The notes: generated by a model from the sequence alone, not told the origin. Positions 23,926 to 43,130 are shown, counted from the stretch's first letter. The stretch is DNA of 64,000 nucleotides from a virus (IMGVR_UViG_3300008259_000020:34991-98990); one strand, 5' to 3'. Numbers and translations are program-made.

Positions 23926-24010
23926 TGGTGCCCACTGCCGGACTCGAACCGGCACTCCAGAGGAAGCAAATTTTAAGTCTGCCGCGGCTACCAATTTCAC
24001 CAAGCGGGCA
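23926..24010 (-). tRNA. tRNA-Leu (UAA), type II, CCA encoded
   Basis: Minus-strand cloverleaf: acceptor TGCCCGC/GTGGGCA, anticodon loop CTTAAAA, long variable arm, T-arm GCCGGTTCGAGTCCGGC, 3' CCA. Confidence 0.75.
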
Positions 24011-24012
24011 TT

Positions 24013-24408
24013 TTATTTTTTATACTTATCACCGGTAACTTGACCGGCACTCATTATAATAACTGGAATACGTTTAATATTCATTTCACGAAATGCAAAG
24101 TAACGATGATGTCCATCAATTACTTGATAAGTGTTTTCTCGTGGAATTCTTCTTACTAGTATTGGAGGTATCTTGCTGATATCTCGTTTTATCTGTTTTT
24201 TAATACTGTTTATATTTGCTCTAGCATCAACATCTTTAGTATCACCTTTACCGTCTCCTTCGAATCTAGATCGGATCTGATTCATAGGCATTACAACAAC
24301 TCGGTTGTATTCGTTTTTAAAATCAGTTACATTGGCACCGACAGTACTGTCACCAGTTTCAGGATCAACGTCTTTGGTTATTTTTGCTACTACTTCAAAT
24401 ATTTTCAT
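24013..24408 (-). CDS. ParB-like nuclease domain protein
   Basis: YQVIDGHHRYFAFRE is the ParB/Srx DGHHR box. Start set at MKIFEVV because the longer ORF would overlap tRNA-Leu(CAA). Confidence 0.55.
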   Translation of the reverse strand: MKIFEVVAKITKDVDPETGDSTVGANVTDFKNEYNRVVVMPMNQIRSRFEGDGKGDTKDVDARANINSIKKQIKRDISKIPPILVRRIPRENTYQVIDGHHRYFAFREMNIKRIPVIIMSAGQVTGDKYKK

Positions 24409-24423
24409 ATAGTATTTATTATT

Positions 24424-24507
24424 TGGTGCCCCAGGAGGGACTTGAACCCCCACGCCTTGCGGCAAAAGATTTTGAATCTTCCGTGGCTACCATTACACCA
24501 CTAGGGC
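24424..24507 (-). tRNA. tRNA-Leu (CAA), type II, CCA encoded
   Basis: Acceptor GCCCTAG/CTGGGGC, anticodon loop TTCAAAA, long variable arm, T-arm GGGGGTTCAAGTCCCTC. Confidence 0.7.
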
Positions 24508-24732
24508 AAAGTGTTGTTTAAAGGTGGCATCAGCACTTGTCTAGTACAAATTTATCGGGCCCAGCTGCGTTCAAACAACTATGTGTCTGTTTTTACACCT
24601 ACGTAAGGACTAGAATGTTTTTTATCCTTACTCCTTTAAACAATATAGTAATTAGCCTAGCAATAACCTATAGCATATCGCCGGGTCGCGGTCGACTCAC
24701 TTCCCTTACACCCCCAAGGTGCAGGCTAAAAT

Positions 24733-24808
24733 TGGTTGCGGTGGGCAGGACTCGAACCTGCGATTTACTGGTTATGAGCCAGTCGAGATGCCGCTTCTCT
24801 ACCCCGCA
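24733..24808 (-). tRNA. tRNA with CAU anticodon (Met, fMet or Ile2), imperfect acceptor/T junction
   Basis: D-arm GAGAAGCGGCATCTC, anticodon arm ACTGG-CTCATAA-CCAGT, T-arm GCAGGTTCGAGTCCTGC. The acceptor pairing has a mismatch or an extra C, so the boundaries are approximate. Confidence 0.5.
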
Positions 24809-24959
24809 ATATTCTGTTTACACATACACCCCAGCGCATTGCGTGTTTCAGTAAAGTTTGGGTGGCCGACCCTCATCTACGGGATGTATGTGTAAACAGA
24901 CTTAACTAGTTGAACAGTCTCGGAAATGGAGTAGTCGCCTACAGCCAAGTGGGTCGGAA

Positions 24960-26095
24960 CTCGAAAACTGTTCAACAAGTTAAGTTAAAAGATATGCCAA
25001 TCCTCTTATCACTTTCCACAAACGGTACCGGTTTTTGAACTAACATATCGTCAAACTTAATTTTTGCATAGGCTGAGATTATGCCTTGCTGTAGGAGCCT
25101 TTGACCATTACCGTTAGCCTTGCGAGCCACGTTCTGTCGTTATCCACAAGAGCCTTTTACGGTCATCTTGTATCTCCCAGTGGTGCCTTTTTTGGAGAGT
25201 GGCGTTTCTCTCGTCGCACGTTGCTACTCGTCCTTCTATCTTTCGTCTGCCTTGCGAGCAGTTCACAGTCGCTAAACCGTTACGCTATCTTTCCGAACAA
25301 CTACATCAGCCTTGCGAGCATCCGTAGACCACATTCTCTTGCGAGTGTGGCATTAACCACCTTTCACAACGTACCGGGACAGTCTTTCGCTTTTGTTTAT
25401 CAAAGAAGGGATTGAACCTTCGCCGATTCCGTTCAATGGAATTGCTCTACCGCTGAGCTATTTGCGAACCTACTTCGATGTGCTGTCCCAGTTGCTTCAC
25501 GTCTTGTTAGACGCAAAATACAACACACCGACTGTCTTTTGCCTTGCGGGCTACTCAACGTCTTTTTAAGTATCCGGGGCCTAACCCTTCCACTCTCAAG
25601 ATGCTAACTTGCCTTTGCTTGCGGGCTCAGACTAGTTAACTACCTGTTAACTTTCGGCATTCGTTAGTTTGGCTGAACAGTGTTTGGGCGCCAACCCTCT
25701 TATCGCTCACCGACCGGCTCTGCGACTATCCTTTCGGACACTATTCCTAACTTACTGCCTACCGCCTTTCTACGGACGGGAGTTGCTTTCGGTACCCGAG
25801 TCAACTCTAGTTCAGGCTTGCTTAGATGGACCATTGCTGGCGCAAGTTTATAGGAAACCTTGCTTTGGGTGCATTACTGCACTTACCCTTACGTGGACGC
25901 TAAGCCGCCCATCTTACTGTGTTTACAACGATATATTGTTTATCTTATCGTCAGTCGATAGACATAGTGGTTAGCATTGCCATTTCAACTTATTGTCAGT
26001 AGCGTGTGGCCCTGTTGTTTCGCTAGGAACCACCCTAGTTACTTGACAGTGCTACTACCCAATATACCTGTGTAAACACAGTGTTTACCAAATTA
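24960..26095. other. ~1.1-kb ORF-poor region inside the tRNA array carrying an iterated 11-13-mer (A)GCCTTGCG(A/G)GC(A)
   Basis: Copies at about 25111, 25251 and 25311 (identical AGCCTTGCGAGCA) and variants at 25341, 25533 and 25616. Only short plus-strand ORFs that look spurious. Confidence 0.4.
25400..25470 (-). ncRNA. degenerate tRNA-like element (D-, anticodon- and T-arms present, acceptor stem unpaired)
   Basis: TAGCTCAGCGGTAGAGC D-arm, ATTCC-ATTGAAC-GGAAT anticodon arm (UGA anticodon with a short variable arm) and GAAGGTTCAATCCCTTC T-arm, but the 5' and 3' ends pair at only 5 of 7 positions. Confidence 0.35.
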
Positions 26096-26200
26096 TCAAA
26101 GAGCGTGTAAACAACTTCTTGCTTACTTGTTTAATATAGTGCATGTTGCACCAAAGGTCAACCACTTTTTTATCTTTTTTTATTTTTTTTTGGAGCGGGT
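26096..26200. repeat. copy A of a ~100-bp dispersed repeat (TCAAAGAGCGTGTAA...TTTTTT...GGAGC)
   Basis: Shares an identical 15-mer TCAAAGAGCGTGTAA and a conserved downstream CTTGC-TTACT-TGTTTA-ATAG-G segment and T-runs with copy B at 28940-29037. Confidence 0.6.
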
Positions 26201-26266
26201 AACGGGATTCGAACCCGTGACCTGGTGCTTGGCAAGCAGCCGCTCTACCCCTGAGCTACACCCGCA
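26191..26266 (-). tRNA. tRNA-Gly (GCC), CCA encoded
   Basis: Acceptor GCGGGTG/TACCCGC, D-arm GCTCAGGGGTAGAGC, anticodon loop TTGCCAA (one C:C mismatch in the stem), T-arm ACGGGTTCGAATCCCGT. Confidence 0.65.
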
Positions 26267-26312
26267 TTTTAAGTTTGTAGTGATTATTAAATTCACTATG
26301 TAGACAATTTAA

Positions 26313-26388
26313 TGGTGCCGGTAGAGAGATTCGAACTCCCCACCTGATGATTACTAATCAACTGCTCTACCAAATGAGCTATACCGGC
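26313..26388 (-). tRNA. tRNA, anticodon ambiguous (loop TTAGTAA, formally AGU; self-complementary TGATTA/TAATCA)
   Basis: Acceptor GCCGGTA/TACCGGC, D-arm GCTCATTTGGTAGAGC, T-arm GGGAGTTCGAATCTCTC and CCA. The anticodon arm GTTGA-TTAGTAA-TCATC has a T:T mismatch. Confidence 0.55.
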
Positions 26389-27092
26389 AAATTATTATAA
26401 AATGGAATAACCACATTTTCAGCAAATGCTTCGTGTTGTTTTCCTGAAGGATGATCATCTCCCGGTGTAGGAAAGTCGTTGGGCATGTTATCTCTAGACC
26501 ATTCGTAGCAACCCTTAACTGGTACAAATCTTGTCCAGTCTACCATTTCTTTTAAATATTCTGTTTGCATAGTATTGACATTACTCTCATCAAATGTGCT
26601 TTGATTCATATTACTAAAAAAGTATTTTATATTATTTACTTTCAAGTAATTTTGCAATCTTAGAATATTTTCATAGGTTCTGATTAAATCAAATGTGTTG
26701 TTTGTATAAATCTTATAATGATTCGTTGAAAATCGACTAGGAAAACTTGCATTAATCAATACCCATTTGCCTGCAGGATCATTTTTTGGCCACGCTAGGT
26801 GACTGGCTTCGGATATGTTTGGCTTTGATAATTGATTTAATACAAATGAGTTTTCTACATAAAATGATGCTCTGTTGGCAGCACTCCACATAACCCCAAC
26901 TACTATATCTTTCGATTCTACATTGTTTTTGAATAAATCATTAACTTGATAAATTGCACGTCTAGCGATATGCTCATTTCCATTACTGCCCAATCCCATT
27001 GGGTAATGGGCATATTTCATTTTTTTTGCAAAATGAAAGGGCCAAGTATGATTGTCGTATGTAAATGAGCATCCGCTTGATACAAAGTGCAT
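26379..27092 (-). CDS. SGNH/GDSL-like hydrolase paralog 2
   Basis: SGCSFTY near the N-terminus and DDHPSG near the C-terminus. Homologous in layout to 19028-19753. Confidence 0.4.
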   Translation of the reverse strand: MHFVSSGCSFTYDNHTWPFHFAKKMKYAHYPMGLGSNGNEHIARRAIYQVNDLFKNNVESKDIVVGVMWSAANRASFYVENSFVLNQLSKPNISEASHLAWPKNDPAGKWVLINASFPSRFSTNHYKIYTNNTFDLIRTYENILRLQNYLKVNNIKYFFSNMNQSTFDESNVNTMQTEYLKEMVDWTRFVPVKGCYEWSRDNMPNDFPTPGDDHPSGKQHEAFAENVVIPFYNNLPV

Positions 27093-27183
27093 ATTTTATT
27101 TATCCCTCATATAGATCTTCGTAATCAATATCGTCATCGTCTTCTAACCAATCGGTATCGGACGAAGTTTGATCAACAGTTTA

Positions 27184-27260
27184 ATGGTCGGAGTGACAGG
27201 ATTTGAACCCACGACATCTTGGTCCCAAACCAAGCGCTCTACCAAACTGAGCTACACTCC
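27184..27260 (-). tRNA. tRNA-Pro (UGG)
   Basis: Acceptor CGGAGTG/CACTCCG, loop TTTGGGA, T-loop TTCAAAT, CCA. Confidence 0.75.
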
Positions 27261-27266
27261 GATATA

Positions 27267-27342
27267 CTGGCTGGGAAGGGTGGATTCGAACCACCAACCA
27301 ACGGATTCAAAGTCCGGTACTCTACCAATTGAGCTACTTCCC
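27267..27342 (-). tRNA. tRNA-Gln (UUG)
   Basis: Acceptor TGGGAAG/CTTCCCA, anticodon arm CCGGA-CTTTGAA-TCCGT, T-arm GGTGGTTCGAATCCACC, CCA. Confidence 0.8.
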
Positions 27343-27348
27343 AACATT

Positions 27349-27431
27349 TTGGTGCGGATAGAGGGACTCGAACCCCCACGCTTACGCACTAGTTCCTAAG
27401 ACTAGCGTGGCTACCATTACACCATATCCGC
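27349..27431 (-). tRNA. tRNA-Leu (UAG), type II
   Basis: Acceptor GCGGATA/TATCCGC, anticodon arm CTAGT-CTTAGGA-ACTAG, long variable arm, T-arm GGGGGTTCGAGTCCCTC, CCA. Confidence 0.8.
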
Positions 27432-27435
27432 ATTA

Positions 27436-27511
27436 ATGGTGCCCCCAGCAGGACTTGAACCCGCGACCCCCTGATTACAAATCAGGTGCTCTACCAGCTG
27501 AGCTATAAGGG
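27436..27511 (-). tRNA. tRNA-Thr (UGU)
   Basis: Acceptor GCCCTTA/TGGGGGC, anticodon arm CCTGA-TTTGTAA-TCAGG, T-arm GCGGGTTCAAGTCCTGC, CCA. Confidence 0.8.
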
Positions 27512-27521
27512 CAAAAACTTT

Positions 27522-27595
27522 TTGGAGCGGGTAACGAGATTCGAACTCGTGACAAGAGCTTGGAAGGCTCGCATGTTACCGCTACACCATACCCG
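27522..27595 (-). tRNA. tRNA-Gly (UCC)
   Basis: Acceptor GCGGGTA/TACCCGC, loop CTTCCAA, T-arm ACGAGTTCGAATCTCGT, CCA. Confidence 0.75.
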
Positions 27596-27602
27596 CATTA
27601 TA

Positions 27603-27678
27603 TTGGCGACCTGTACCGGGATCGAACCGGTGTTCTTCTGCGTGACAGGCAGACGTATTAACCACTTTACCAACAGGC
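27603..27678 (-). tRNA. tRNA-Asp (GUC)
   Basis: Perfect acceptor GGCCTGT/ACAGGTC, anticodon arm TCTGC-CTGTCAC-GCAGA, T-arm ACCGGTTCGATCCCGGT, CCA. Confidence 0.85.
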
Positions 27679-27869
27679 CAAAAGCATCACACACGGCTTA
27701 CAAGTTCCGTCCCACCACTATGTGAAAGGTGTGATGCAACACTGTATACTACGCCGTTCCAAACCAACATCTAGTGTTGATATGCTATTTAAAGCCACGC
27801 ACTGCTATTTCAAACAGTTACTCACGATGCTATGCTTACGCTACTAGGAGGTTCACAGTGTGTTTATTA

Positions 27870-27957
27870 TGGCGGAAGCGGTGAGATTCGAACTCACGGT
27901 ACCTTGCGGTACGCTGGTTTTCAAGACCAGAGCCATCAACCACTCGGCCACACTTCC
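27870..27957 (-). tRNA. tRNA-Ser (UGA), type II
   Basis: Acceptor GGAAGTG/CGCTTCC, anticodon arm CTGGT-CTTGAAA-ACCAG, long variable arm CGTACCGCAAGGTACC, T-arm GTGAGTTCGAATCTCAC, CCA. Confidence 0.85.
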
Positions 27958-27964
27958 GTATATT

Positions 27965-28040
27965 TGGCACAGGAGCAAGGACTTGAACCCTGGACATTCG
28001 GTTTTGGAGACCGACGCTCTACCAACTGAGCTACACCTGC
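27965..28040 (-). tRNA. tRNA-Trp (CCA)
   Basis: D-arm GCTCAGTTGGTAGAGC, anticodon arm TCGGT-CTCCAAA-ACCGA, T-arm CAGGGTTCAAGTCCTTG. The acceptor has one T:T mismatch. Confidence 0.7.
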
Positions 28041-28046
28041 ATATAT

Positions 28047-28121
28047 TGGTGCGGAATGAGAGGGTCGAACTCCCGACAACCTCGGTGTAAACGAGGGGCT
28101 CTACCACTGAGCTAATTCCGC
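28047..28121 (-). tRNA. tRNA-Val (UAC)
   Basis: Acceptor GCGGAAT/ATTCCGC, anticodon arm CCTCG-TTTACAC-CGAGG, T-arm GGGAGTTCGACCCTCTC, CCA. Confidence 0.85.
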
Positions 28122-28124
28122 ATA

Positions 28125-28340
28125 TCACTGTTTACCGCGTGACTAGAAAACTTGCCATCAAAGCGGGATTTGTTAATTGCTTGTTAATCTCTGGGCTTCC
28201 CCGTTAATCTTCAAGTTCTTAACTGGTCTCGGACTGCAACTTTGATACCGTGTTTACTGATTGTGCAGTACTGTTCAAGTTAAACAACTTACACAATGTT
28301 CAACGCGGCTTTTCTAGCCCCTCGGAAAACAGTGATTATA
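28125..28340. mobile_element. ~215-bp insertion-like element bounded by 12-bp terminal inverted repeats inside the tRNA array (MITE-like, or a structured RNA)
   Basis: ATATCACTGTTT at 28129-28140 pairs with AAACAGTGAT(T)ATAT at 28327-28341. Inner arms CTAGAAAAC and GCTTTTCTAG. No ORF, and it occupies the only long gap between tRNA-Val and tRNA-Ala. Confidence 0.35.
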
Positions 28341-28344
28341 TTAA

Positions 28345-28420
28345 TGGTGGACCCTGCCGGGATCGAACCGGCGACATTATGCTTGCAAAGCATACGCTCT
28401 CCCAACTGAGCTAAGAGCCC
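28345..28420 (-). tRNA. tRNA-Ala (UGC)
   Basis: Acceptor GGGCTCT/AGGGTCC, anticodon arm TATGC-TTTGCAA-GCATA, T-arm GCCGGTTCGATCCCGGC, CCA. Confidence 0.85.
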
Positions 28421-28436
28421 GTATATTGGCGGAGCG

Positions 28437-28524
28437 TCTGGGAGTCGAACCCAGTCTACCCTTGCGGGTAGTGCAGATTAGCAATCTGGTGCCTTACCGT
28501 CCGGCCCACGCTCCGTATATTTGG
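28437..28524 (-). tRNA. tRNA-Ser (GCU), type II
   Basis: Acceptor GGAGCGT/ACGCTCC, anticodon arm CAGAT-TGCTAAT-ATCTG, long variable arm, T-arm CTGGGTTCGACTCCCAG, CCA. Confidence 0.8.
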
Positions 28525-28531
28525 CTCCTCG

Positions 28532-28607
28532 TGCTGGGCTCGAACCAGCGACACTTTGATTAACAGTCAAATACTCTACCAACTGAGCTAACGAGGAACA
28601 CTAACTC
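28532..28607 (-). tRNA. tRNA-Asn (GUU)
   Basis: Acceptor TCCTCGT/ACGAGGA, anticodon arm TTTGA-CTGTTAA-TCAAA, T-arm GCTGGTTCGAGCCCAGC, CCA. Confidence 0.85.
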
Positions 28608-32899: not shown

Positions 32900-33448
32900 T
32901 TACTTAATCCTCAATTCTTCAATGTTAACGGGCGTGTAGTCAACGGCTTCTACACTCATATTGCGATATGGTCCTTCTGGACTAGGGTTTTGATGGATAT
33001 GTCCGTGGACATTAAGGAATGTCTTTTGAACTGTTCCTACATCACCTTCTGCAACAAAAACCCGTAAGTTGCTAGGATGAACAGGAACGTGTGTTAGTAG
33101 CAAGCCAAATTCAGAGAACATACGCCACATGTGAACTTTGGAGAAGAATCCGCCGCTGCTCAAATACTTGATGTCATCGTGATTGCCCACAATCAGCCGC
33201 TTTTGGCCATGCAGTTTAGGCCACAACTTTTGAAAGTATTCACGGTCGCCAAACATCACGTCACCCAAGTGATATACTTTGTCACCGGGTTTCACACGGC
33301 TGTTCCACTGTTCAACCATGTAGTCATCCATTTCCTTTACAGAGGAGAATCTAGCACCACGGACGAGTTTGCCAGTGGTGCTGTCTGTAAACGTTAGAAT
33401 ATTTGCGTGATTGAAGTGTGTATCACTGATTACCCAAATATCACTCAT
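32900..33448 (-). CDS. calcineurin-like metallophosphoesterase 1
   Basis: MPP motifs ISDTHFNH, HLGDVMFGD, VGNHD and VHGHIH. Confidence 0.7.
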   Translation of the reverse strand: MSDIWVISDTHFNHANILTFTDSTTGKLVRGARFSSVKEMDDYMVEQWNSRVKPGDKVYHLGDVMFGDREYFQKLWPKLHGQKRLIVGNHDDIKYLSSGGFFSKVHMWRMFSEFGLLLTHVPVHPSNLRVFVAEGDVGTVQKTFLNVHGHIHQNPSPEGPYRNMSVEAVDYTPVNIEELRIK

Positions 33449-33449
33449 G

Positions 33450-34974: not shown

Positions 34975-34985
34975 TTTAACTCCTA

Positions 34986-35727: not shown

Positions 35728-35790
35728 AATGCTGGACCTAAAATCATACCAGCAGCATAGAAAACAAAGTAAGGAAACTCAATAATTTTT

Positions 35791-36213
35791 TTAATCATGG
35801 TCATAAGCCTTCAAAAAGTTTTCCATATACTTGCGAATGTTCTCTGCTCCTACGGGATTCATACTATGAACATGATATCCAAATCCCACAGGCAACCGTA
35901 GTTTGTTATCCATCACATGGTCACAAAACCATTTGGCAAAGGTGTAGCCAGTTTTCTCGCCTGTGTCTTTTTCGTAATGTTCGTCTGCCAAGTCATGGTC
36001 AAAACTGATCATAGTGGGCAAGCCATACTTTTCCACACACCAAACAGCATCATCCATGCTGCGGCAGATCACTACGTTTTTGTAAGGTCCGTAGTTGTAA
36101 CGCACATCACCGGGGAAGCGAATGTCATCTAAAAACAGTGTCCAGGTCATTTTACATTCCCATCCAAGCAGCACATTCATCCCAACGAACGTTGGTAGTG
36201 ATTGACTTTTCAA
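35791..36213 (-). CDS. hypothetical protein (140 aa)
   Basis: ORF immediately downstream of the RNA ligase. Confidence 0.35.
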   Translation of the reverse strand: MKSQSLPTFVGMNVLLGWECKMTWTLFLDDIRFPGDVRYNYGPYKNVVICRSMDDAVWCVEKYGLPTMISFDHDLADEHYEKDTGEKTGYTFAKWFCDHVMDNKLRLPVGFGYHVHSMNPVGAENIRKYMENFLKAYDHD

Positions 36214-37190
36214 TGTGATCCAATATCATAGCACGACCGTCACGATCACCAAAACGACCAAACACATACACAGCCGCAAACGGATCGCGGTTCTTGATCG
36301 TAGGCATCCACTCCTGTGCATAACGCTTGCGATCAAGTCCTGACGCAACAACAGTGTTCCAGTAACGATCATACTTTTCCACAGTGTTGTGCAAACGTTC
36401 TGCAAATCTGCGTTCAAAGTCACGCACACGATCTGCCTGCACTTTAGGCAACATAGGAACAACATCATCAACTTCTTCGTTGAGGATCAAGTTCACAATG
36501 TTACGATCAAACACAATACGATCCACAGTCTTGTGAATACGCACGTACCAGTCGTTCTTGATTTTGCACATGTGACCATCTGCAAAGCGGATGATGTCGC
36601 CTTCACGACCTTCTGCACCACGCTGACGAGCAATGTAGTCAACAAGATTGCCTGCTACACTACCATACTGCGTAACAGTGTTGAACGGACAAGAGATATC
36701 CATTGCATATTCGCCAGTCAAGTTGTCACGAGTACCAAGATACACAAGGTCTGCTGCCTCATAAGCCAGCACAATCTGGTTAAATGGGCTTACCCACTCA
36801 AACAGCGGAGTTAATCCAAGATCAACCATAGTGCGAAGCCATTCCTTCAATCTGCGGTCCTGAGCAGCAAGCCACGCCTCGGCATCCATAGCAACCGACG
36901 TCACTCCCATTTTGGTAGCCAGTCGCAGGTGCCCATCAACCAAGATCGGACGTAAGAGCACCATCAGGACCAAAGATAAGACCACGGCATTCACGACGAA
37001 TCGCACCGCCCAAGTCGTCTGGGCCAGTCATGTCAAAGGTATCGGCCATAGCCACCACATAGTTGACCACAGTATAGCCTTCACGTTCGGCTACGACAAA
37101 TTCGTCACGGCCTTCTACGTGCGGCAGCACATCACTGATGTGACGGATCAGAGGAAAACGGTAGTTCATGATTTTATCCTTGTGTATCAC
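36152..37190 (-). pseudogene. rnlA: RNA ligase 1 (T4 RnlA/gp63 family), apparently interrupted by a frameshift near 36936-37006
   Basis: The N-terminal frame (37190-36936) gives ...YTVVNYVVAMADTFDMTGPDDLGGAIRRECRGLIFGPDG, which matches T4 Rnl1 YRIFSYNYASY...ECRGIMFEMDG. The second frame (from 37006) gives VDGHLRLATKMGVTS...FEWVSPFNQIVLAYEAADLVYLGTRDNLTGEY...DGHMCKIKNDWYVRIH, which matches T4 ...VDYILTKEDGSL...FEFVAPTNRIVLAY...ENETGEY...DGSHFKIKSDWYVSLH. The two frames overlap by about 70 nt. Motif I reads TKMG, not the canonical KxDG. Confidence 0.6.
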
Positions 37191-37225
37191 CTACCCTAGT
37201 GTTATAGCACAAGGATAGGCAGTTG

Positions 37226-37744
37226 TCAATCACTGATTCTGTTGCCATACATGTCGTAGCAGCGAACAGCATCGAATCCTTCGTCAACAGTAGGGCGAAC
37301 AAAACTATCCATCATTGATTCAATTACATGATCAGGAATAGTTTTGCCTGGACGGCTAGCCATACGGTGCTGCCAATCTTCCCACTGGCTATCACCCGCT
37401 GGCAAGAGGATGCACTCGCACTCAACACGATAGCCAGCGTTACGCATACGATTAATGATCTTACGACGCTTGCCAACACCAAGGTTGGTCTGATCCCAGA
37501 TGACATCCTTACGAAGAGTAACTATCGAGTTCAACTTCCGTTCGTTGAACTCCGTCGCAGCCTTAATGTTTAAAGAAAACGCCTCGTTATAAGTGATGCC
37601 GTTGTCTTCAGCAACCGTATCGATATACATATCGGTGCTGTAGATCCAAGTGTCTTCAGAGATCATTCTCTGAATGAGAGTGCTCTTACCGGTAGCAGGC
37701 AACCCAACCATCACAGTACAAGTAGGCATGTTTTCTCCAATCAA
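37226..37744 (-). CDS. polynucleotide 5'-kinase (T4 Pnk N-terminal kinase-domain homolog, stand-alone)
   Basis: P-loop VMVGLPATGKSTL and DQTNLGVGKRRKIINRMRNAGYRV align with the T4 PseT kinase domain (GCPGSGKST ... SDTNLNPERR...). Confidence 0.65.
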   Translation of the reverse strand: MIGENMPTCTVMVGLPATGKSTLIQRMISEDTWIYSTDMYIDTVAEDNGITYNEAFSLNIKAATEFNERKLNSIVTLRKDVIWDQTNLGVGKRRKIINRMRNAGYRVECECILLPAGDSQWEDWQHRMASRPGKTIPDHVIESMMDSFVRPTVDEGFDAVRCYDMYGNRISD

Positions 37745-37950
37745 TACTTAAAGTTTCCACTCGCTTCGTTATCTTTGAAACCAGTCATATATGCTTCGAT
37801 TTCATTAGGAGTCATACGATCCTCAGGAATTAATTCGCTGGATCCGGTGCCACCAACGTAGTAGTGAGGAACACATGGACGACGGTAGTAACTATCAGCA
37901 CCACCGCGATCGTAGGGTCCACCATGACGTCTATCGTTAGATTGAGACAT
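37741..37950 (-). CDS. small Gly/Tyr/Arg-rich protein (69 aa)
   Basis: ORF between the kinase and phosphatase genes. Confidence 0.35.
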   Translation of the reverse strand: MSQSNDRRHGGPYDRGGADSYYRRPCVPHYYVGGTGSSELIPEDRMTPNEIEAYMTGFKDNEASGNFKY

Positions 37951-37976
37951 TAGGTTATTCCTTTTCTATTTATGTA

Positions 37977-38207
37977 TCAGTGACGAACGAGATGAACGCG
38001 GCCAAGGAGCGTAGCAAGAGCGTATTCGATCGCCTCCATCGCCTGCGCCTTGGTAATGTTATTCGAGTCGTACTGTGACTCTGCGAGTTTAATCAGCTGA
38101 GCGAGTTCTTCATTAGTCATACCGCAGATTGCAGTTTTGACTTCTTCGAGGCTATTAAAGGTAGTCATTGTCGTGTTCCTTTTGTTTCCTACAGATATAG
38201 AATACAC
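37977..38207 (-). CDS. small hypothetical protein (76 aa)
   Basis: ORF. Confidence 0.35.
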   Translation of the reverse strand: MYSISVGNKRNTTMTTFNSLEEVKTAICGMTNEELAQLIKLAESQYDSNNITKAQAMEAIEYALATLLGRVHLVRH

Positions 38208-38239
38208 TGATTCTAAACGAATGTAAATAGAAAAGTTGT

Positions 38240-38701
38240 TTAGAAGTCCTCATCACCTTGGTATACGTTGAAAACAAAGATACCTTCTTCACGCCACATA
38301 CGAACAACTCGCGGACGATCGTCAAACACCATGTCAGGCTTACGGCCGTAGTCAGCAATGATCTCGTCAAGGATTTCACGCTTGACAATATCGTCACCAC
38401 GGAAGTCGTCTGCCTTACGCATGTACAGTTTGGCAGTGTAGTTCCAAAAGCGGTTGTCCTGCAACCACTTCATAGTAGCATCACGACTACGCTCGTTGCG
38501 TCCGCTTGCAAAGATGATTTCGTTACCAGCAGCCTTCAGCGAGTGAAATGCTTCTGCAACATATGGATTCACAGCATCGTTTGGAATACCAGCATCAAAT
38601 GCCTTCCAGTTCTTTGGCTTGCTACGAACGTAGTCCAGCCGGTGTTCGATGTTAGCCAGTGTGCCGTCGATATCAAAAACAACTAGCATTTTATCCCTCA
38701 T
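38240..38701 (-). CDS. polynucleotide 3'-phosphatase (HAD family; T4 Pnk C-terminal domain homolog, stand-alone)
   Basis: VVFDIDGTLA (DxDGT nucleophile motif) and FDDRPRVVRMWREEGIFVFNVYQGD align with T4 PseT VIFDVDGTLA ... [24 protein letters not shown]. Confidence 0.7.
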   Translation of the reverse strand: MRDKMLVVFDIDGTLANIEHRLDYVRSKPKNWKAFDAGIPNDAVNPYVAEAFHSLKAAGNEIIFASGRNERSRDATMKWLQDNRFWNYTAKLYMRKADDFRGDDIVKREILDEIIADYGRKPDMVFDDRPRVVRMWREEGIFVFNVYQGDEDF

Positions 38702-38848
38702 TTTATTACCCTATGTGTGTTTATAGCATAAGGTAAACAGTGTGTCAACCTCAATGCCGATTCTTATCTTTGTTTTGGTGGATTATTTCTTTAACTATCC
38801 ACCAAAACAGTGGAATGTAAGCAACTATCATGGCAATACCGAGTGCCA

Positions 38849-39163: not shown

Positions 39164-39222
39164 GTTAGTGCCTTTCTATTGCCTATGTATTAATATACGA
39201 CAGTTTAGGATTTTGTCAACTT

Positions 39223-39597
39223 CTATTTGTGCAGTGCAAATTGACGCATGTATTCCAGTTCTTCTTCTTTATAAACAAACACCCACATGCAGGTAACTTC
39301 ACTACGAGTAAACACATCACCGTAGTAGTTGCGGTATGGATATGTAGGATCTGTAGTAAATCCCCAGTGTGCAACATTCATTGAGATCTTGCTCATGACA
39401 TCCATGGGCTCGTGCAAAACTAGTGTAGTACCGAAGTTGCGATCTTCACGCCATGCTATTACAGCATCACGAAATTCAAAAACGTCGGGAATCTGTGAGT
39501 CGAAGTCTGCCTGAGCATGGGCAGCCTGTGCCATAGCCTTACCTGGGTTCATATCCCACAGGTCGCGACGCATAACGATGTAAAATCTTGGTTCCAT
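39223..39597 (-). CDS. peptidyl-tRNA hydrolase, PTH2 family
   Basis: YIVMRRDLWDMNPGKAMAQAAHAQ matches the PTH2 signature (V.R.DL.M..GK.AAQ..HA). Confidence 0.6.
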   Translation of the reverse strand: MEPRFYIVMRRDLWDMNPGKAMAQAAHAQADFDSQIPDVFEFRDAVIAWREDRNFGTTLVLHEPMDVMSKISMNVAHWGFTTDPTYPYRNYYGDVFTRSEVTCMWVFVYKEEELEYMRQFALHK

Positions 39598-39656
39598 TTT
39601 GTCCTCAATAAAAAACCTACACTAACAATATACTGCTAGTGTAGGTGTTTGTCAAG

Positions 39657-40307: not shown

Positions 40308-40317
40308 TTTTATGCCC

Positions 40318-40536: not shown

Positions 40537-40551
40537 TTCTTTCCTCTTGTA

Positions 40552-40627
40552 TGGAGCTCCCGGAAGGATTCGAACCCTCGACCACCACGTTCGAAGCGTG
40601 GCACTCTGACCGCTGAGTTACGGAAGC
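40552..40627 (-). tRNA. tRNA-Arg (UCG)
   Basis: Acceptor GCTTCCG/CGGGAGC, anticodon arm CCACG-CTTCGAA-CGTGG, T-arm GAGGGTTCGAATCCTTC, CCA. Confidence 0.8.
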
Positions 40628-40639
40628 GTAGTATTTATT

Positions 40640-40715
40640 TGGTGCCCCCGGCAGGAGTCGAACCCACAACCTAGGGAGTAGAAATCCCTTGCTCTTCCAG
40701 TTGAGCTACGAAGGC
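40640..40715 (-). tRNA. tRNA-Arg (UCU)
   Basis: Acceptor GCCTTCG/CGGGGGC, anticodon arm AGGGA-TTTCTAC-TCCCT, T-loop TTCGACT, CCA. Confidence 0.8.
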
Positions 40716-40736
40716 TAAATTTCTGACAACTGACAA

Positions 40737-40806
40737 AGTGCAAAGGGACTCGAACCCTTGTCTCCGACTCCACGCCGGCGTCCTATCCTCTAGACGATAC
40801 ACACGA
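40737..40806 (-). ncRNA. degenerate tRNA-like element (Glu-type D-arm, good T-arm, no acceptor pairing, no CCA)
   Basis: TCGTCTAGAGGATAGGACG D-arm (compare E. coli tRNA-Glu), T-arm AAGGGTTCGAGTCCCTT, no foldable anticodon stem and no 3' complement. Confidence 0.3.
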
Positions 40807-41081
40807 TCATTGCAGCACTTTTCTATATCTCGACAACGACATCGAAGTTACTGCAACAAAAGGTCAGTTGCCACGGTGGTTGCCGCCACCTATTCTTTAT
40901 CTCTTATTTATTTCTTGTGTATACTATACATGATCTTTTCACGCATGTCAACGCATATACAGCACCAGCAGCTTATATGTTTAGTTTTCTTGCCACGCAT
41001 GTTGACGTTTGCCGAGGCGGCGCGGTGGGGCGGGCCGATGATCTGCTGGAACAGTTTATCTCGAGAAACACTGAACTCAGC

Positions 41082-41600
41082 CTATTCTAATTCGTCTTCG
41101 AATGGGTATCTTCTCACTGCTAGCAATTTTCTAACAGGATATGCACTAAAGTTAACACTGTTATCTTGATTTCCACCAAGCACCAAATAGTATTCTTGAC
41201 CATTGTGATAGGTTGAAGTTACAAAGAATCCAACATGACCTTTCCAATTGGCATTGCCACGCTTAAACACAACAACATCACCTGATTCTGGTTCGTCTAC
41301 TTCTACGCCCCAATCAAGAAAACTTCTTGCCAGTAGAGGATGTTCTGCATATTCATCAGACCCAGGTAATCCAGTTTCTGCAAGCACTGCATTTACAAAT
41401 GCAGCACACCATTCAGTGGCAACTGGATCAACACCGATAAAATCTTTTATTTCTGCTCTATGACTCTTTTCACTCCACCCTAGTTTTTCTGTTGCAGCAA
41501 CCAATGGTTCTGGCGGTGTCGGTGAAGTAGTAAACAATTGAATTTTTGCACAAGCAGATACTGATAGTAACAGTACTGTTAGTAACATAGCCCTCATCAT
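41082..41600 (-). CDS. secreted CHAP/NlpC-P60-type cysteine peptidase (candidate endolysin or cell-wall hydrolase)
   Basis: Signal peptide MMRAMLLTVLLLSVSACA. Catalytic-type Cys in TEWCAAFVNAVL and His in GHVGFF. A TATAAATA late-promoter-like motif sits just upstream. Confidence 0.5.
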   Translation of the reverse strand: MMRAMLLTVLLLSVSACAKIQLFTTSPTPPEPLVAATEKLGWSEKSHRAEIKDFIGVDPVATEWCAAFVNAVLAETGLPGSDEYAEHPLLARSFLDWGVEVDEPESGDVVVFKRGNANWKGHVGFFVTSTYHNGQEYYLVLGGNQDNSVNFSAYPVRKLLAVRRYPFEDELE

Positions 41601-41648
41601 AAAAATATTTATAGAATAGGTCTAGATAGAAATAGTACAGTTTAACTT

Positions 41649-41724
41649 TGGCACTCCCGGCAGGACTCGAACCTGCAACAATCACCTTCGTAGGGTGGCG
41701 CTCTTCCAGTTGAGCTACGGAAGT
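41649..41724 (-). tRNA. tRNA-Arg (ACG)
   Basis: Acceptor ACTTCCG/CGGGAGT, loop CTACGAA, T-arm GCAGGTTCGAGTCCTGC, CCA. Confidence 0.75.
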
Positions 41725-41730
41725 ATCGTT

Positions 41731-41805
41731 TGGTACCGTGTATAGGATTTGAACCTATTCCGACGCAGTCACAGTGCGGTATGCTACCCTTACACCAAGC
41801 ACGGC
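41731..41805 (-). tRNA. tRNA-His (GUG)
   Basis: Loop CTGTGAC, T-arm ATAGGTTCAAATCCTAT, CCA. The acceptor has one terminal mismatch. Confidence 0.65.
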
Positions 41806-41812
41806 ATTATTC

Positions 41813-41887
41813 TGGTTGCCCCTACTAGATTTGAACTAGTGACCTATCCCTTATCAGGGGATTGCTCTACCACTGAGCTAAGAGGCA
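41813..41887 (-). tRNA. tRNA-Ile (GAU)
   Basis: Acceptor TGCCTCT/AGGGGCA, anticodon arm ATCCC-CTGATAA-GGGAT, T-arm ACTAGTTCAAATCTAGT, CCA. Confidence 0.8.
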
Positions 41888-41988
41888 ATATTCATTGTTT
41901 AGAAGATACACTGACCAATACCATTTCTGGTCCGATAGGTTTATTTTATGTGGCGGCCTAAATGCCACTCAGTGTATCATCAAACCAA

Positions 41989-42064
41989 TGGTGAACCGGG
42001 TGGGATTCGAACCCACGTACTCCGATTAAAAGTCGGGTGCTAAAACCACCTCAGCTACCGGTCC
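41989..42064 (-). tRNA. tRNA-Lys (UUU)
   Basis: Acceptor GGACCGG/CCGGTTC, loop CTTTTAA, T-arm GTGGGTTCGAATCCCAC, CCA. Confidence 0.75.
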
Positions 42065-42123
42065 ACGTTTCGTTTGTCGCTTTCTTCTTTGTTACGTTTT
42101 CGTTTCATTTTTGTTCCTTGAAT

Positions 42124-42201
42124 TGGTGTACCGGGTGGGAGTTGAACCCACGACCTTCGGATTAAGAGTCCGCGGCTCTAACCTGGCTGAGCTACCGGTG
42201 C
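42124..42201 (-). tRNA. tRNA-Lys (CUU)
   Basis: Anticodon arm GCGGA-CTCTTAA-TCCGA, T-arm GTGGGTTCAACTCCCAC, CCA, long D-loop. Confidence 0.75.
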
Positions 42202-42220
42202 ATTAATAGTTGTATGTTTG

Positions 42221-42664
42221 TTAGTTACACCACGACTGCTTTTTGTCGCCGTAGTATTCTCTAGCATAACCTTGTTCAATAAGCATCTGTGTTAGGCTCT
42301 TACCGTCGATAAGAACATCACCTAGCACTCTGCCGCCGAACTTGTCCCACTCATAAAATACAATTTGAGTAGTCTTGGCTTTTGCAACTAAATCTTTTGT
42401 AAATTTACTTGCAGCATCACCCATGTCGCCTTCTTTTTTACATTCTGCTCTGCCACCTTTTTCAGGTGTATCTACGCCCCATACACGAAGTGATAGTTTC
42501 TTCGGAAGTGGATCTAGCAAGAACTTTGCTTCAAATTCAACTGTATCACCATCTACTACACGTAGAATTTTTAAGTCGTGTGCTACACCAGTTGGCTTTT
42601 TTACTTCAGCAAATGCAGTGGATGCAGCAACAATCAGTGCTACAGTTAAAAGTATTTTTTTCAT
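42221..42664 (-). CDS. secreted staphylococcal-nuclease (SNase/thermonuclease) homolog
   Basis: Signal peptide MKKILLTVALIVAASTAFA. ILRVVDGDTVEF and RVWGVDTPEK match the SNase Ca-site and active-site boxes. Confidence 0.7.
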   Translation of the reverse strand: MKKILLTVALIVAASTAFAEVKKPTGVAHDLKILRVVDGDTVEFEAKFLLDPLPKKLSLRVWGVDTPEKGGRAECKKEGDMGDAASKFTKDLVAKAKTTQIVFYEWDKFGGRVLGDVLIDGKSLTQMLIEQGYAREYYGDKKQSWCN

Positions 42665-42709
42665 TATGTTCTCCTAAATACTAGAATATTTATAACAAAA
42701 AAACAATTA

Positions 42710-42785
<76 letters not shown>

Positions 42786-42791
42786 ATATTT

Positions 42792-42876
42792 TGGTGGGAG
42801 AGGAGGGAATCGAACCCGTCCGTGCGTTGCCGCGATGGAGTTACAGTCCACTGCCTCACCTTGAGGCGTCTCTCCC
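42792..42876 (-). tRNA. tRNA-Tyr (GUA), type II (bacterial-type long variable arm)
   Basis: Acceptor GGGAGAG/CTCTCCC, loop CTGTAAC, long variable arm, T-loop TTCGATT, CCA. Confidence 0.8.
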
Positions 42877-42882
42877 TTATTT

Positions 42883-42959
42883 TGGTAGGACATACGGGTT
42901 TCGAACCCGTTTCTCCGCCTTGAAAGGGCGGCGACCTTCGCCAAGAAGTCCAATGTCCC
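42883..42959 (-). tRNA. tRNA-Glu (UUC)
   Basis: Acceptor GGGACAT/ATGTCCT, anticodon arm CCGCC-CTTTCAA-GGCGG, T-arm ACGGGTTCGAAACCCGT, CCA. Confidence 0.8.
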
Positions 42960-42965
42960 ATAGTT

Positions 42966-43040
42966 TGGTGATGTAGGCTGGATTCGAACCAGCAACCTAC
43001 GGCGTATGAGACCGTTGCACTACCGTTGTGCTACCACATC
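42966..43040 (-). tRNA. tRNA with CAU anticodon (Met or Ile2/lysidine)
   Basis: Acceptor GATGTGG/CTACATC, anticodon arm ACGGT-CTCATAC-GCCGT, T-arm GCTGGTTCGAATCCAGC, CCA. Confidence 0.8.
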
Positions 43041-43046
43041 ATTGTT

Positions 43047-43130
43047 TGGAGGTCGGTATGTGAATCGAACACATTACTTTGCAGTGCTATGGAGTTGCAG
43101 TCCATCCCCTTACCATCCGGGCCACCGACC
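43047..43130 (-). tRNA. tRNA-Cys (GCA)-like with an atypical 14-nt extra (variable) region
   Basis: Perfect acceptor GGTCGGT/ACCGACC, anticodon arm ATGGA-CTGCAAC-TCCAT, then AGCACTGCAAAGTA before T-arm ATGTGTTCGATTCACAT, CCA. A long variable arm is not expected for Cys. Confidence 0.55.

What the first reader, a model, noticed from the sequence alone, without database searches (positions are those of the whole stretch)
36152..38701. T4-like RNA-repair operon with polynucleotide kinase/phosphatase split into two genes and Rnl1 co-located
In T4, Pnkp (PseT) is one polypeptide with kinase (N-terminal) and phosphatase (C-terminal) domains, and rnlA lies elsewhere. Here the HAD phosphatase domain (38240-38701, DxDGT and a collinear C-terminal match) and the P-loop kinase domain (37226-37744) are separate genes with two small ORFs inserted between them. 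The Rnl1 homolog follows immediately. Together with two flanking metallophosphoesterases, PTH2 and the two tRNA arrays, this forms a dedicated tRNA healing-and-sealing island. The most likely role is countering anticodon-nuclease defences. The split architecture and the two intervening small proteins (possible regulators, or inhibitors of a host nuclease) are unusual.
Basis: partly seen in the sequence, partly recalled or inferred. Interest (0 to 1): 0.7.

Follow-up and report, generated by a model that had tools for sequence, protein, structure and literature searches.

The report
Phage RNA-repair genes; ligase broken
This is an ordinary phage tRNA-repair gene cluster, with a separate 3'-phosphatase, 5'-kinase, RNA ligase 1 and cREC gene as in its whole phage clade, but in this sequence a 116-base deletion has removed the ligase's catalytic lysine.

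Summary
The HAD phosphatase (Pfam HAD_PNKP, 3e-31) and the P-loop kinase (AAA_33, 5e-17; family profile matches T4-type Pnkp kinase, hhalign 97.7%) are real, separate genes. Two real small genes lie between them.

The split is not unusual. About 45 related IMG/VR contigs carry one or both genes, always separately and in varying order. The top 120 HAD and top 150 kinase relatives in the protein libraries are also stand-alone. Cultured phages such as Roseobacter phage DSS3P8 have the same layout. Gene order here (phosphatase, then kinase) is opposite to T4 Pnkp domain order.

The two small genes are variable cargo. Their homologues also sit in unrelated contexts, so they are not conserved partners.

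Four metagenome contigs, 100% identical to the window on both sides across the Rnl1 region, encode an intact 377-aa Rnl1. The window lacks 116 bases between 36952 and 36953. This removes the FHKFFN…EKMDGS segment, including the adenylylated motif I lysine, and shifts the frame.

The module can probably heal RNA ends but cannot seal them with this gene. Jumbo-phage RNA-repair systems of this make-up were described by Iyer et al. 2021. Interest is low to moderate.

The parts
38722..38748 (-). Promoter-like element TTGACA-N17-TATAAA upstream of the HAD gene
   Evidence: The window has 14 TTGACA-N16-18-TATA matches, all on the minus strand, against 1.03 expected by chance.
38240..38689 (-). Stand-alone HAD-type polynucleotide 3'-phosphatase, 149 aa. 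The upstream ATG at 38701 is a possible alternative start.
   Evidence: Pfam HAD_PNKP 3e-31. T4 Pnkp 161-300 at E 1e-11, with Asp165/Asp167/Ser211/Lys258/Asp277-278 equivalents aligned (residue roles from PMC3592404). Best PHROG is phrog_415. The 120 best homologues are all 129-166 aa and stand-alone.
37977..38168 (-). Small gene sA, 63 aa, function unknown
   Evidence: 25 protein clusters of 63-64 aa at 70-95% identity, plus one 47-aa partial, with no Pfam or PHROG hit. Found elsewhere next to unrelated genes.
37741..37950 (-). Small gene sB, 69 aa, function unknown, with invariant motif RHGGPYDRGxADSYYxRxxxPHY
   Evidence: 77 clusters and alignment A2. Contexts elsewhere are near baseplate, DNA polymerase or DNA ligase genes. 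AF2 model pLDDT 85.6, with no PDB fold match.
37226..37729 (-). Stand-alone polynucleotide-kinase-family P-loop kinase, 167 aa
   Evidence: AAA_33 5e-17. Family profile against PDB: PSTK 4e-10, mammalian PNKP 7e-10, T4 Pnk 1e-8, CthPnk 1e-7. hhalign against T4-type Pnkp residues 4-~150: probability 97.7%, E 1.8e-12. P-loop K15/S16, D33 and R122/R126 are invariant. The top 150 cluster representatives are all stand-alone.
37203..37229 (-). Promoter-like element TTGACA-N17-TATAAC upstream of Rnl1, overlapping the kinase stop codon
36936..37169 (-). Rnl1 N-terminal fragment: 77 codons, then a stop created by the frameshift
   Evidence: It is 100% identical to the start of the intact 377-aa gene in L078-L081.
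36952..36953 (-). Deletion junction. 116 nt present in L078-L081 are missing here. They encode MSRPFHKFFNVNEREETQTHTVDMSQPHVIMEKMDGSMI, which includes motif I.
   Evidence: flanks are 100% identical (7611 nt) and 99.7% identical (6183 nt) to L078. Motif I aligns to T4 Rnl1.
36152..36951 (-). Rnl1 C-terminal remnant, out of frame with the N-terminal fragment. Motifs III-V and the C-terminal domain are intact.
   Evidence: RNA_lig_T4_1 6e-7, matching only profile positions 60-227. T4_Rnl1_C 3e-5. phrog_562 9e-46.
35791..36150 (-). cREC_REC (cyclic-phosphate processing receiver-like) gene. Its start codon lies one base after the Rnl1 stop codon.
   Evidence: PF20274 1.8e-20. Rnl1-cREC and cREC-HAD adjacency recur in relatives. 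The predicted role comes from PMC7824862.
39657..40307 (-). Metallophosphoesterase MPE1
   Evidence: phrog_1649 8e-34. Pfam Metallophos only 1.2e-3. Lies next to Rnl1, kinase or HAD in L049, L071 and L014.
39223..39597 (-). PTH2-like ORF (weak match)
   Evidence: PF01981 1e-4, 22.9 bits against a cut-off of 23. phrog_1866 2e-17, function unknown.
32900..33448 (-). Metallophosphoesterase MPE2
   Evidence: Metallophos 3e-8. phrog_547 1e-47. PDB 1xm7 3e-11. Adjacent to HAD in L013.
40552..43130 (-). tRNA array 2, with 12 ARAGORN tRNAs
23926..28597 (-). tRNA array 1, with 18 tRNAs and an embedded GOLLD RNA

Best explanation
The region is the RNA end-healing and sealing module that is standard in a large clade of uncultivated, mostly freshwater, large and jumbo phages.

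One promoter drives a stand-alone HAD 3'-phosphatase, two small cargo genes and a stand-alone polynucleotide 5'-kinase. A second promoter drives RNA ligase 1 and a cREC gene. Metallophosphoesterases, a PTH2-like gene and about 30 tRNA genes lie around them.

Inferred mechanism, by homology with T4 Pnkp and Rnl1:
- The HAD enzyme (possibly helped by cREC) converts 2',3'-cyclic or 3'-phosphate ends of cleaved tRNA to 3'-OH.
- The kinase phosphorylates the 5'-OH.
- Rnl1 seals the nick through a lysyl-AMP intermediate.

In this particular genome the last step is lost. A recent 116-nt deletion removes the motif I lysine and shifts the frame. What remains is a 77-aa N-terminal stub and an untranslated or poorly translated C-terminal remnant.

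Shown here: gene identities, family membership, active-site conservation, the split layout across relatives, and the deletion.
Inferred: substrates, the anti-anticodon-nuclease role, and loss of sealing in vivo.
For: Domain assignments.

Active-site residues are conserved in the HAD (roles from PMC3592404) and in the kinase.

The split layout holds in every relative examined:
- About 45 IMG/VR loci carrying one or both genes.
- 120 HAD homologues.
- 150 kinase representatives.
- Cultured phages DSS3P8 and Cr30.

Linkage of Rnl1, kinase, HAD, cREC and the MPEs recurs in varying order.

The deletion:
- L078-L081 are identical to the window but carry 116 extra nt and an intact 377-aa Rnl1.
- Motif I, EK[ML]DGS, is intact in nearly all of the roughly 85 contigs that cover it.

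Promoter-like elements.

Iyer et al. 2021 (PMC7824862) describe this combination in jumbo phages: tRNAs, ATP-grasp RNA ligases, PNK, HAD phosphatase and cREC.
Against: - No biochemical data exist for any member of these stand-alone families.
- The kinase is about equally distant from PSTK, mammalian PNKP and T4 Pnk, so its substrate is not pinned down.
- The deletion is seen only in this window. The exact N-fragment product is not on record elsewhere. The junction-sequence scans were uninformative because the intact-allele control also found nothing. An assembly artefact therefore cannot be excluded.
- The rest of the genome is not in the window and could carry another RNA ligase.
Confidence: 0.75

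Rival explanations
1. This is an intact, unusual T4-like operon in which Pnkp has recently been split into two genes. The two inserted small proteins act as regulators or nuclease inhibitors, and a functional Rnl1 follows.
For: - HAD and kinase hits to the two halves of the T4-type Pnkp PHROG: phrog_505 positions 161-294 and 1-142.
- The small ORFs are real conserved genes.
Against: - Both enzymes belong to large stand-alone families, and no fused form appears among the closest relatives.
- Gene order is the reverse of the T4 domain order.
- sA and sB are absent between HAD and kinase in most relatives and occur in unrelated contexts.
- Rnl1 lacks motif I and is frame-shifted.
Confidence: 0.07
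2. The 116-nt gap is an assembly or sequencing artefact. The real phage has the intact 377-aa Rnl1, and the module is fully functional.
For: - Four independent assemblies of the same strain have the intact gene.
- The flanks are 100% identical, so no decay has followed the lesion.
- The deletion allele was not found elsewhere.
Against: - There is no repeat long enough to collapse an assembly at this spot. Only a roughly 11-nt imperfect direct repeat, ATGAnCCGTCC, lies nearby.
- A related lineage (L009) carries an independent 27-nt deletion of the same motif, so natural motif-I deletion alleles exist.
- The database scans were uninformative.
Confidence: 0.2
3. The loss of motif I is selected rather than accidental. 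The deletions are escape lesions at the homing site of an intein-associated endonuclease, or at the target of some other sequence-specific attack. Alternatively, ligase-dead variants are favoured while the rest of the protein keeps a second role, as with the tail-fibre attachment activity of T4 gp63.
For: - Two independent deletions (window 116 nt, L009 27 nt) both span the exact codon boundary KMDG|S.
- A distant relative (L035/L070) carries a split intein plus an endonuclease-like ORF at that boundary.
- The right-hand breakpoints of the two deletions lie 6 nt apart.
- L009 keeps the reading frame.
Against: - No intein or endonuclease homologue is present in the window or in close relatives.
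- There are only two alleles, and the reasoning is post hoc.
- The window allele is frame-shifted, so a second function of the C-terminal part is doubtful.
- The T4 gp63 tail-fibre role comes from my own knowledge and was not tested here.
Confidence: 0.1
4. The HAD and kinase genes do not act on tRNA breaks. They act on DNA ends or nucleotides, for example as a 3'-phosphatase and 5'-kinase for DNA repair, or on seryl-tRNA-like substrates.
For: - The kinase profile hits PSTK and the mammalian DNA-repair PNKP as strongly as the T4 RNA-repair Pnk.
- A UvdE gene and an ATP-dependent DNA ligase gene lie in the same window.
Against: - Gene-neighbourhood linkage to Rnl1 and cREC persists across dozens of divergent contigs.
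- The genes lie between tRNA arrays.
- The HAD best matches the Pnkp-specific Pfam family.
Confidence: 0.08

Closest known systems
Bacteriophage T4 Pnkp (PseT) plus Rnl1 (gp63) tRNA repair pathway
   Same: - The HAD phosphatase is homologous to the T4 Pnkp C-terminal domain, with all catalytic residues aligned.
- The kinase family aligns to the T4-type Pnkp N-terminal domain, with the P-loop, catalytic Asp and RxxxR lid conserved.
- The intact allele of the ligase aligns to T4 Rnl1 at 6e-28, including motif I and the C-terminal domain.
   Different: - The two healing activities are on separate polypeptides, encoded in the opposite order.
- The kinase is no closer to T4 than to PSTK or mammalian PNKP.
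- Here the ligase gene lies next to the healing genes.
- A cREC gene is coupled to the ligase.
- In this window the ligase lacks motif I.
Jumbo-phage RNA-repair systems described by Iyer, Anantharaman, Krishnan, Burroughs and Aravind 2021 (Viruses 13:63, PMC7824862)
   Same: The component set is the same: many phage tRNAs, an ATP-grasp RNA ligase, a polynucleotide kinase, a HAD phosphatase, calcineurin-like phosphoesterases, and a cREC domain linked in an operon to the RNA ligase.
   Different: [quoted passage not shown] In this clade it is always stand-alone.
Roseobacter phage DSS3P8 gp099 / gp105 / gp106, and similar genes in Ruegeria, Rhodobacter, Caulobacter Cr30, Rhizobium, Xanthomonas and Synechococcus phages
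   Same: Cultured phages carry a stand-alone HAD 'polynucleotide kinase' (44% identity), an Rnl1 and a stand-alone AAA kinase (30-41% identity) within a few kb of each other.
   Different: - Identity is low.
- The order differs (HAD…Rnl1-kinase).
- Other genes lie in between.
- No cREC is annotated there.
- The ligase is intact.
Mammalian PNKP and Capnocytophaga Pnkp1
   Same: - Both the kinase profile and the HAD match these proteins.
- In the matched PNKP chains the kinase-domain match lies C-terminal, in line with the molecule name 'polynucleotide phosphatase/kinase'. This matches the gene order here.
   Different: Those are single fused polypeptides. Mammalian PNKP is, from my own knowledge, a DNA-repair enzyme.

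Membership tests
T4-type bifunctional Pnkp | One polypeptide with an N-terminal P-loop 5'-kinase and a C-terminal HAD 3'-phosphatase | tested here: not met
   The ORFs are separate, each with its own start and stop, and lie 510 nt apart in phosphatase-then-kinase order. No fused form occurs among the relatives.
T4-type bifunctional Pnkp | DxDxT acylphosphatase active site: Asp nucleophile, Asp acid-base, Ser, Lys and the Mg-binding DD pair | tested here: met
   DIDGT, SGR, K and DD align to T4 Asp165, Asp167, Ser211, Lys258 and Asp277/278. Residue roles are from PMC3592404.
T4-type bifunctional Pnkp | Kinase P-loop GxxxxGK[ST], catalytic Asp after the P-loop helix, and an RxxxR lid | tested here: met
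   G9-P11-G14-K15-S16-T17, D33 and R122/R126 are invariant or nearly so in 18 family members. They align to T4-type Pnkp.
T4-type bifunctional Pnkp | 5'-OH kinase and 2',3'>p / 3'-p phosphatase activity on RNA ends | not testable with these tools
   This needs enzyme assays.
Rnl1 (T4 RNA ligase 1 family) | Nucleotidyltransferase motif I, KxDG, with the lysine that becomes adenylylated | tested here: not met
   The motif is absent from the window in all three frames. It is deleted together with 116 nt that are present in the otherwise identical L078-L081 as EKMDGS.
Rnl1 (T4 RNA ligase 1 family) | Remaining nucleotidyltransferase motifs, and the Rnl1-specific C-terminal domain | tested here: met
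   RNA_lig_T4_1 positions 60-227 (6e-7), and T4_Rnl1_C 3e-5 at 24.6 bits, just under the cut-off of 27. FEWVSP, EGDIIRF and CKIKNDWY align to the T4 motifs.
Rnl1 (T4 RNA ligase 1 family) | A single uninterrupted reading frame of about 375 aa | tested here: not met
   The 77-codon N-terminal fragment ends at a stop at 36936-36938. The remainder is in another frame.
cREC (cyclic-phosphate processing receiver-like) domain proteins | Match to PF20274, and gene-neighbourhood linkage to RNA ligases | tested here: met
   PF20274 at 1.8e-20 and 73.8 bits against a cut-off of 27. The gene lies directly downstream of Rnl1 here and in L078-L081, and a second cREC precedes HAD in L079 and L086-L093.
Jumbo-phage RNA-repair system (Iyer et al. 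2021) | Co-occurrence of phage tRNAs, an ATP-grasp RNA ligase, PNK, a phosphoesterase and/or HAD, and cREC | tested here: met
   Related contigs reach 200-380 kb.

The most novel reading that the evidence does not exclude
The active-site (motif I) DNA of Rnl1 is a recurrent target in this phage clade. A split intein with an endonuclease-like gene sits exactly at KMDG|S in one lineage. Two other lineages, including this window, carry independent deletions that span that same point and end within 6 nt of each other. On this reading the deletions would be escape scars from a homing endonuclease or another sequence-specific attack. That would mean phages sacrifice their tRNA ligase to evade a selfish element or a host defence.
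Probability: 0.1. Interest if true: 0.55.

Novelty: new member of a known kind. Interest (0 to 1): 0.3.

Why it matters
It matters mainly as a correction.
- The 'split Pnkp' layout is the normal state of a large and abundant clade of environmental phages. It should not be read as a rare fission of the T4 enzyme.
- These stand-alone HAD and kinase families are abundant: 957 and more than 1200 cluster hits. No biochemical study of them turned up in two literature searches here. They would be reasonable targets for testing whether healing needs a fused enzyme.
- For annotating this genome, the ligase should be flagged as disrupted. Predicting a complete heal-and-seal counter-defence from gene presence alone would be wrong here.

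Tried and rejected
- **Near-identical DNA in cultured phages:** none found. The closest cultured Rnl1 is 31-34% identical.
- **Kinase, single-sequence PDB search:** no hit. A family profile was needed.
- **Hidden intron or frameshift joining HAD and kinase:** rejected.
  - No intron family in the Rfam scan of the whole window.
  - Both intervening ORFs are conserved protein families.
  - Relatives have HAD and kinase as separate genes even when directly adjacent (L013).
- **Programmed frameshift or bypass rescuing Rnl1:** rejected, because the motif I codons are absent from the DNA in every frame.
- **Function of sB:**
  - No Pfam or PHROG hit.
  - Confident AF2 model, but no PDB fold match better than E = 2.
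  - Its neighbourhoods elsewhere are unrelated to RNA repair.
- **Function of sA:** no family hit, and variable neighbours.
- **Deletion allele elsewhere:**
  - The exact N-fragment protein is not on record.
  - The junction 33-mer is absent from IMG/VR and JGI metagenome contigs.
  - The intact-allele control 33-mer was also absent from the metagenome collection, so these scans say nothing.
- **Second RNA ligase in the window:** none among the ORFs of 150 aa or more that were scanned, only an ATP-dependent DNA ligase at 22510-23835.
- **Intein or endonuclease homologues in the window:** none.
- **Link of the two metallophosphoesterases to CthPnkp or lambda phosphatase by sequence:** none.
- **L082:** its sequence diverges after FHKF. 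This is most likely a chimeric contig end, and I did not interpret it.
- **ORF-free gap at 34053-34612:** no Rfam match at E ≤ 1.
Full report
**What is in the sequence**

All genes in 32.9-43.2 kb are on the minus strand. Reading 5'->3' on that strand:
- A promoter-like TTGACA-N17-TATAAA at 38748-38722.
- A HAD phosphatase ORF at 38701/38689-38240.
- A 63-aa ORF, sA, at 38168-37977.
- A 69-aa ORF, sB, at 37950-37741.
- A P-loop kinase ORF at 37729-37226.
- A second promoter-like TTGACA-N17-TATAAC at 37229-37203.
- An RNA ligase 1 gene starting at 37169.
- A cREC_REC gene at 36150-35791, whose ATG lies one base after the ligase stop codon.

The window has fourteen TTGACA-N16-18-TATA matches, all on the minus strand, against 1.03 expected. 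The two elements are therefore probably real promoters. The region is at least two transcription units, not one operon. Thirty tRNA genes form two arrays, at 23926-28597 and 40552-43130.

**The healing enzymes**

The HAD protein:
- Matches Pfam HAD_PNKP at 3e-31.
- Aligns to residues 161-300 of T4 Pnkp at 1e-11.
- The DxDGT nucleophile and acid-base pair, the SGR serine, the lysine and the DD pair all align. Das and Shuman define these as the catalytic set in T4: Asp165, Asp167, Ser211, Lys258, Asp278 (PMC3592404).

The kinase:
- Matches AAA_33 at 5e-17.
- As a single sequence it has no PDB hit.
- A profile of 18 family members hits only polynucleotide or tRNA 5'-kinases at the top: PSTK 4e-10, mammalian PNKP 7e-10, T4 Pnk 1e-8, Capnocytophaga Pnkp1 3e-8, Clostridium thermocellum Pnk 1e-7.
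- hhalign against a T4-type Pnkp (phage PST) gives 97.7% probability over residues 4 to about 150.
- The P-loop Lys/Ser, the Asp corresponding to T4 Asp35 and the RxxxR lid are invariant in the family.

Both proteins are credible end-healing enzymes.

**Is the split unusual? No.**

A scan of IMG/VR with the ligase returned 75 related loci, many from contigs of 200-380 kb.
- About 45 of them also hold a HAD gene, a kinase gene or both.
- In every case these are separate genes of 145-159 aa (HAD) and about 155-207 aa (kinase).
- Their order varies: HAD-kinase-Rnl1, HAD-Rnl1-kinase, or kinase…Rnl1…HAD.
- In L013 the two genes abut with overlapping stop and start codons and are still separate.

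The wider libraries agree.
- In the 5.8-billion-protein library, the 120 best HAD relatives (74-95% identity) are all 129-166 aa with HAD_PNKP alone, out of 957 hits.
- In the 1.84-billion-representative library, the 150 best kinase relatives are 107-218 aa, out of 1238 with E ≤ 1e-10.
- PHROGs already holds a stand-alone HAD family, phrog_415, which is the best hit at 4e-38. The T4-type phrog_505 is matched by the HAD at positions 161-294 and by the kinase at positions 1-142.

Cultured phages show the same layout. Roseobacter phage DSS3P8 has gp099 (HAD), gp105 (RNA ligase) and gp106 (AAA kinase). Caulobacter phage Cr30 has the kinase directly next to Rnl1.

The gene order here is phosphatase then kinase, the reverse of the T4 domain order. 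These are two independent modules, not a recently fissioned pseT.

**The two small ORFs**

Both are real genes.
- sB belongs to a family of 77 clusters with an invariant RHGGPYDRGxADSYYxRxxxPHY motif.
- sA belongs to a family of 25 clusters of 63-64 aa, plus one 47-aa partial.

Neither has a Pfam or PHROG hit. They are not conserved partners of the enzymes.
- Among the IMG/VR loci they lie between HAD and kinase only in L022 and L024. Most relatives have other genes or nothing there.
- sB homologues elsewhere lie beside baseplate, DNA polymerase or DNA ligase genes.
- sA lies beside a methyltransferase and cREC in one contig, and beside RNase H-like and SNase genes in another.

A confident AF2 model of sB (pLDDT 85.6) has no PDB fold match. 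I treat both as mobile cargo of unknown function.

**The ligase is broken**

The true gene starts at 37169 and encodes 77 residues ending …RGLIFGPDGALTSDLG*. The rest of the ligase continues in another frame from …RPILVDGHLRLATKMG.

In all 75 IMG/VR relatives the two parts are in one frame. In all but three of them (L009, and L035/L070 with an intein, both described below) they are separated by about 38 codons that include FHKFFN…EK[ML]DGS.

A look-up of the exact kinase protein found contigs of the same strain.
- L078 (JGI 3300031857) matches the window at 100% over 7611 nt (window 29342-36952) and at 99.74% over 6183 nt (window 36953-43134).
- It has 116 extra nt exactly between those two blocks, and an intact 377-aa Rnl1.
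- L079, L080 and L081, from three ENA samples, agree.
- The intact protein aligns to T4 Rnl1 (2C5U) at 6e-28, with vimeKmDGSmirp opposite the T4 motif I.

From established knowledge of covalent nucleotidyltransferases, this lysine forms the ligase-AMP intermediate. Without it no sealing can occur. The flanks are identical, so the lesion is recent.

Nothing near the junction could collapse an assembly. Only an imperfect 11-nt repeat, ATGAnCCGTCC, lies nearby. I could not confirm the allele elsewhere.
- The N-fragment protein is not on record.
- The junction scans found nothing.
- My positive control also found nothing, so those scans are uninformative.

I give about 0.2 to an artefact.

**Context and linkage**

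cREC_REC (PF20274, 1.8e-20) follows Rnl1 here and in the sister contigs. A second cREC precedes the HAD gene in several recombinant relatives.

The two metallophosphoesterases and the PTH2-like ORF recur next to Rnl1, kinase or HAD in divergent contigs such as L013, L014, L049 and L071. By sequence they show no specific link to the CthPnkp or lambda phosphatases.

This combination was described for jumbo phages by Iyer et al. 2021 (PMC7824862): tRNAs, an ATP-grasp ligase, PNK, HAD, calcineurin-like esterases, and cREC linked to RNA ligases. That paper also introduced cREC as a predicted 2',3'-cyclic phosphate processing enzyme.

**Mechanism**

Inferred from homology:
1. The HAD enzyme, possibly helped by cREC, opens and removes the 2',3'-cyclic or 3'-phosphate.
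2. The kinase phosphorylates the 5'-OH.
3. Rnl1 seals the nick.

In this genome the third step is lost unless another ligase lies outside the window. The scanned ORFs of the window contain only an ATP-dependent DNA ligase.

**A lead, not a finding**

Motif I is intact in nearly all of the roughly 85 contigs that cover it. The exceptions cluster at one spot.
- L009 is 99.2% identical to L001. It has an in-frame 27-nt deletion of exactly KMDGSMIRP.
- L035 and L070 carry what looks like a split intein, Cys1 … HN|S, inserted at KMDG|S. An endonuclease-like ORF lies on the opposite strand between the two halves. The Intein_splicing hits, 1e-4 and 5e-4, are below the Pfam cut-off.
- The window's deletion and the L009 deletion both span that insertion point, and their right ends lie 6 nt apart.

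This could reflect attack on, and escape at, a homing site. However, no intein or endonuclease homologue is present in the window or in close relatives. I rate this reading at about 0.1.

**Verdict**

This is a new member of a known kind of phage RNA-repair module. The split layout is normal for its clade, and the ligase is defective in this sequence. Interest is 0.3.

Noticed in passing
window 25070-25531 (-): A full-length GOLLD RNA (Rfam RF02032, 191.7 bits against a gathering score of 150, model positions 1-416) lies inside tRNA array 1. The tRNA-Ser(tga) gene at 25395-25468 is embedded within it.
   Followed up: no
L035 4186-6816 (identical in L070): In this distant relative, Rnl1 is a 'fractured gene'. 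An N-extein plus a roughly 99-aa N-intein (CLDEDS…) ends at a stop. A 339-aa ORF with a DUF7487 match lies on the opposite strand. A roughly 46-aa C-intein (…NNILVHN|S) then precedes the C-extein. The insertion point is exactly KMDG|SMIRP of motif I. The Intein_splicing hits are weak, at 1e-4 and 5e-4.
   Followed up: partly
L009 about 5990-6001 (IMGVR_UViG_3300047510_001582): An in-frame 27-nt deletion removes exactly KMDGSMIRP (motif I) of Rnl1. The contig is otherwise 99.2% identical to L001 over 6.6 kb.
   Followed up: partly
L074 626-2468 and L075 5656-6694: Rnl1 is split into two ORFs after …ITGEYIRL. In L074 a SegE-like GIY-YIG endonuclease ORF on the opposite strand lies between the halves. 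In L075 the split is there without the endonuclease.
   Followed up: partly
window, 14 sites between 17049 and 54786, all (-): TTGACA-N16-18-TATA occurs 14 times, all on the minus strand, against 1.03 expected. This looks like a set of sigma-70-type phage promoters in front of many genes.
   Followed up: partly
window 56909-58951 (-): A 680-aa protein has a CHASE2 sensor domain (1.6e-37) and an adenylate/guanylate cyclase domain (1.1e-17). This is an unusual gene for a phage.
   Followed up: no
window 49919-50554 (-), 43850-44977 (-), 15857-16927 (-), 19753-20370 (-): Auxiliary genes: a PP-loop ATPase that may be TilS-like (3e-31), an ornithine/arginine decarboxylase (2e-52), the UV endonuclease UvdE (9e-37) and a ClpP protease (2e-65).
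   Followed up: no
window 42795-42876 (-): An extra tRNA-like Rfam hit (33.8 bits) lies between tRNA-Phe and tRNA-Glu. ARAGORN did not call it.
   Followed up: no
window 34053-34612: A gap of about 560 nt has no plausible minus-strand ORF, and no gene is called there in sister contig L078 either. There is no Rfam match at E ≤ 1.
   Followed up: partly
L082 2280-2445 (NCBI GCA_031546225.1, JAVQIP010076372.1): The sequence is identical to the window's Rnl1 start up to …FHKF. It then switches to unrelated AT-rich sequence that runs to the contig end. This could be a chimeric contig end or an insertion in the same part of the gene.
   Followed up: partly
L002 6731-7123 and L008 7376-7768: In some relatives, 1.3-2.1 kb of small ORFs are inserted between Rnl1 and cREC. 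By eye, the C-terminus of one 131-aa protein resembles ribosomal protein L7/L12. This was not tested.
   Followed up: no
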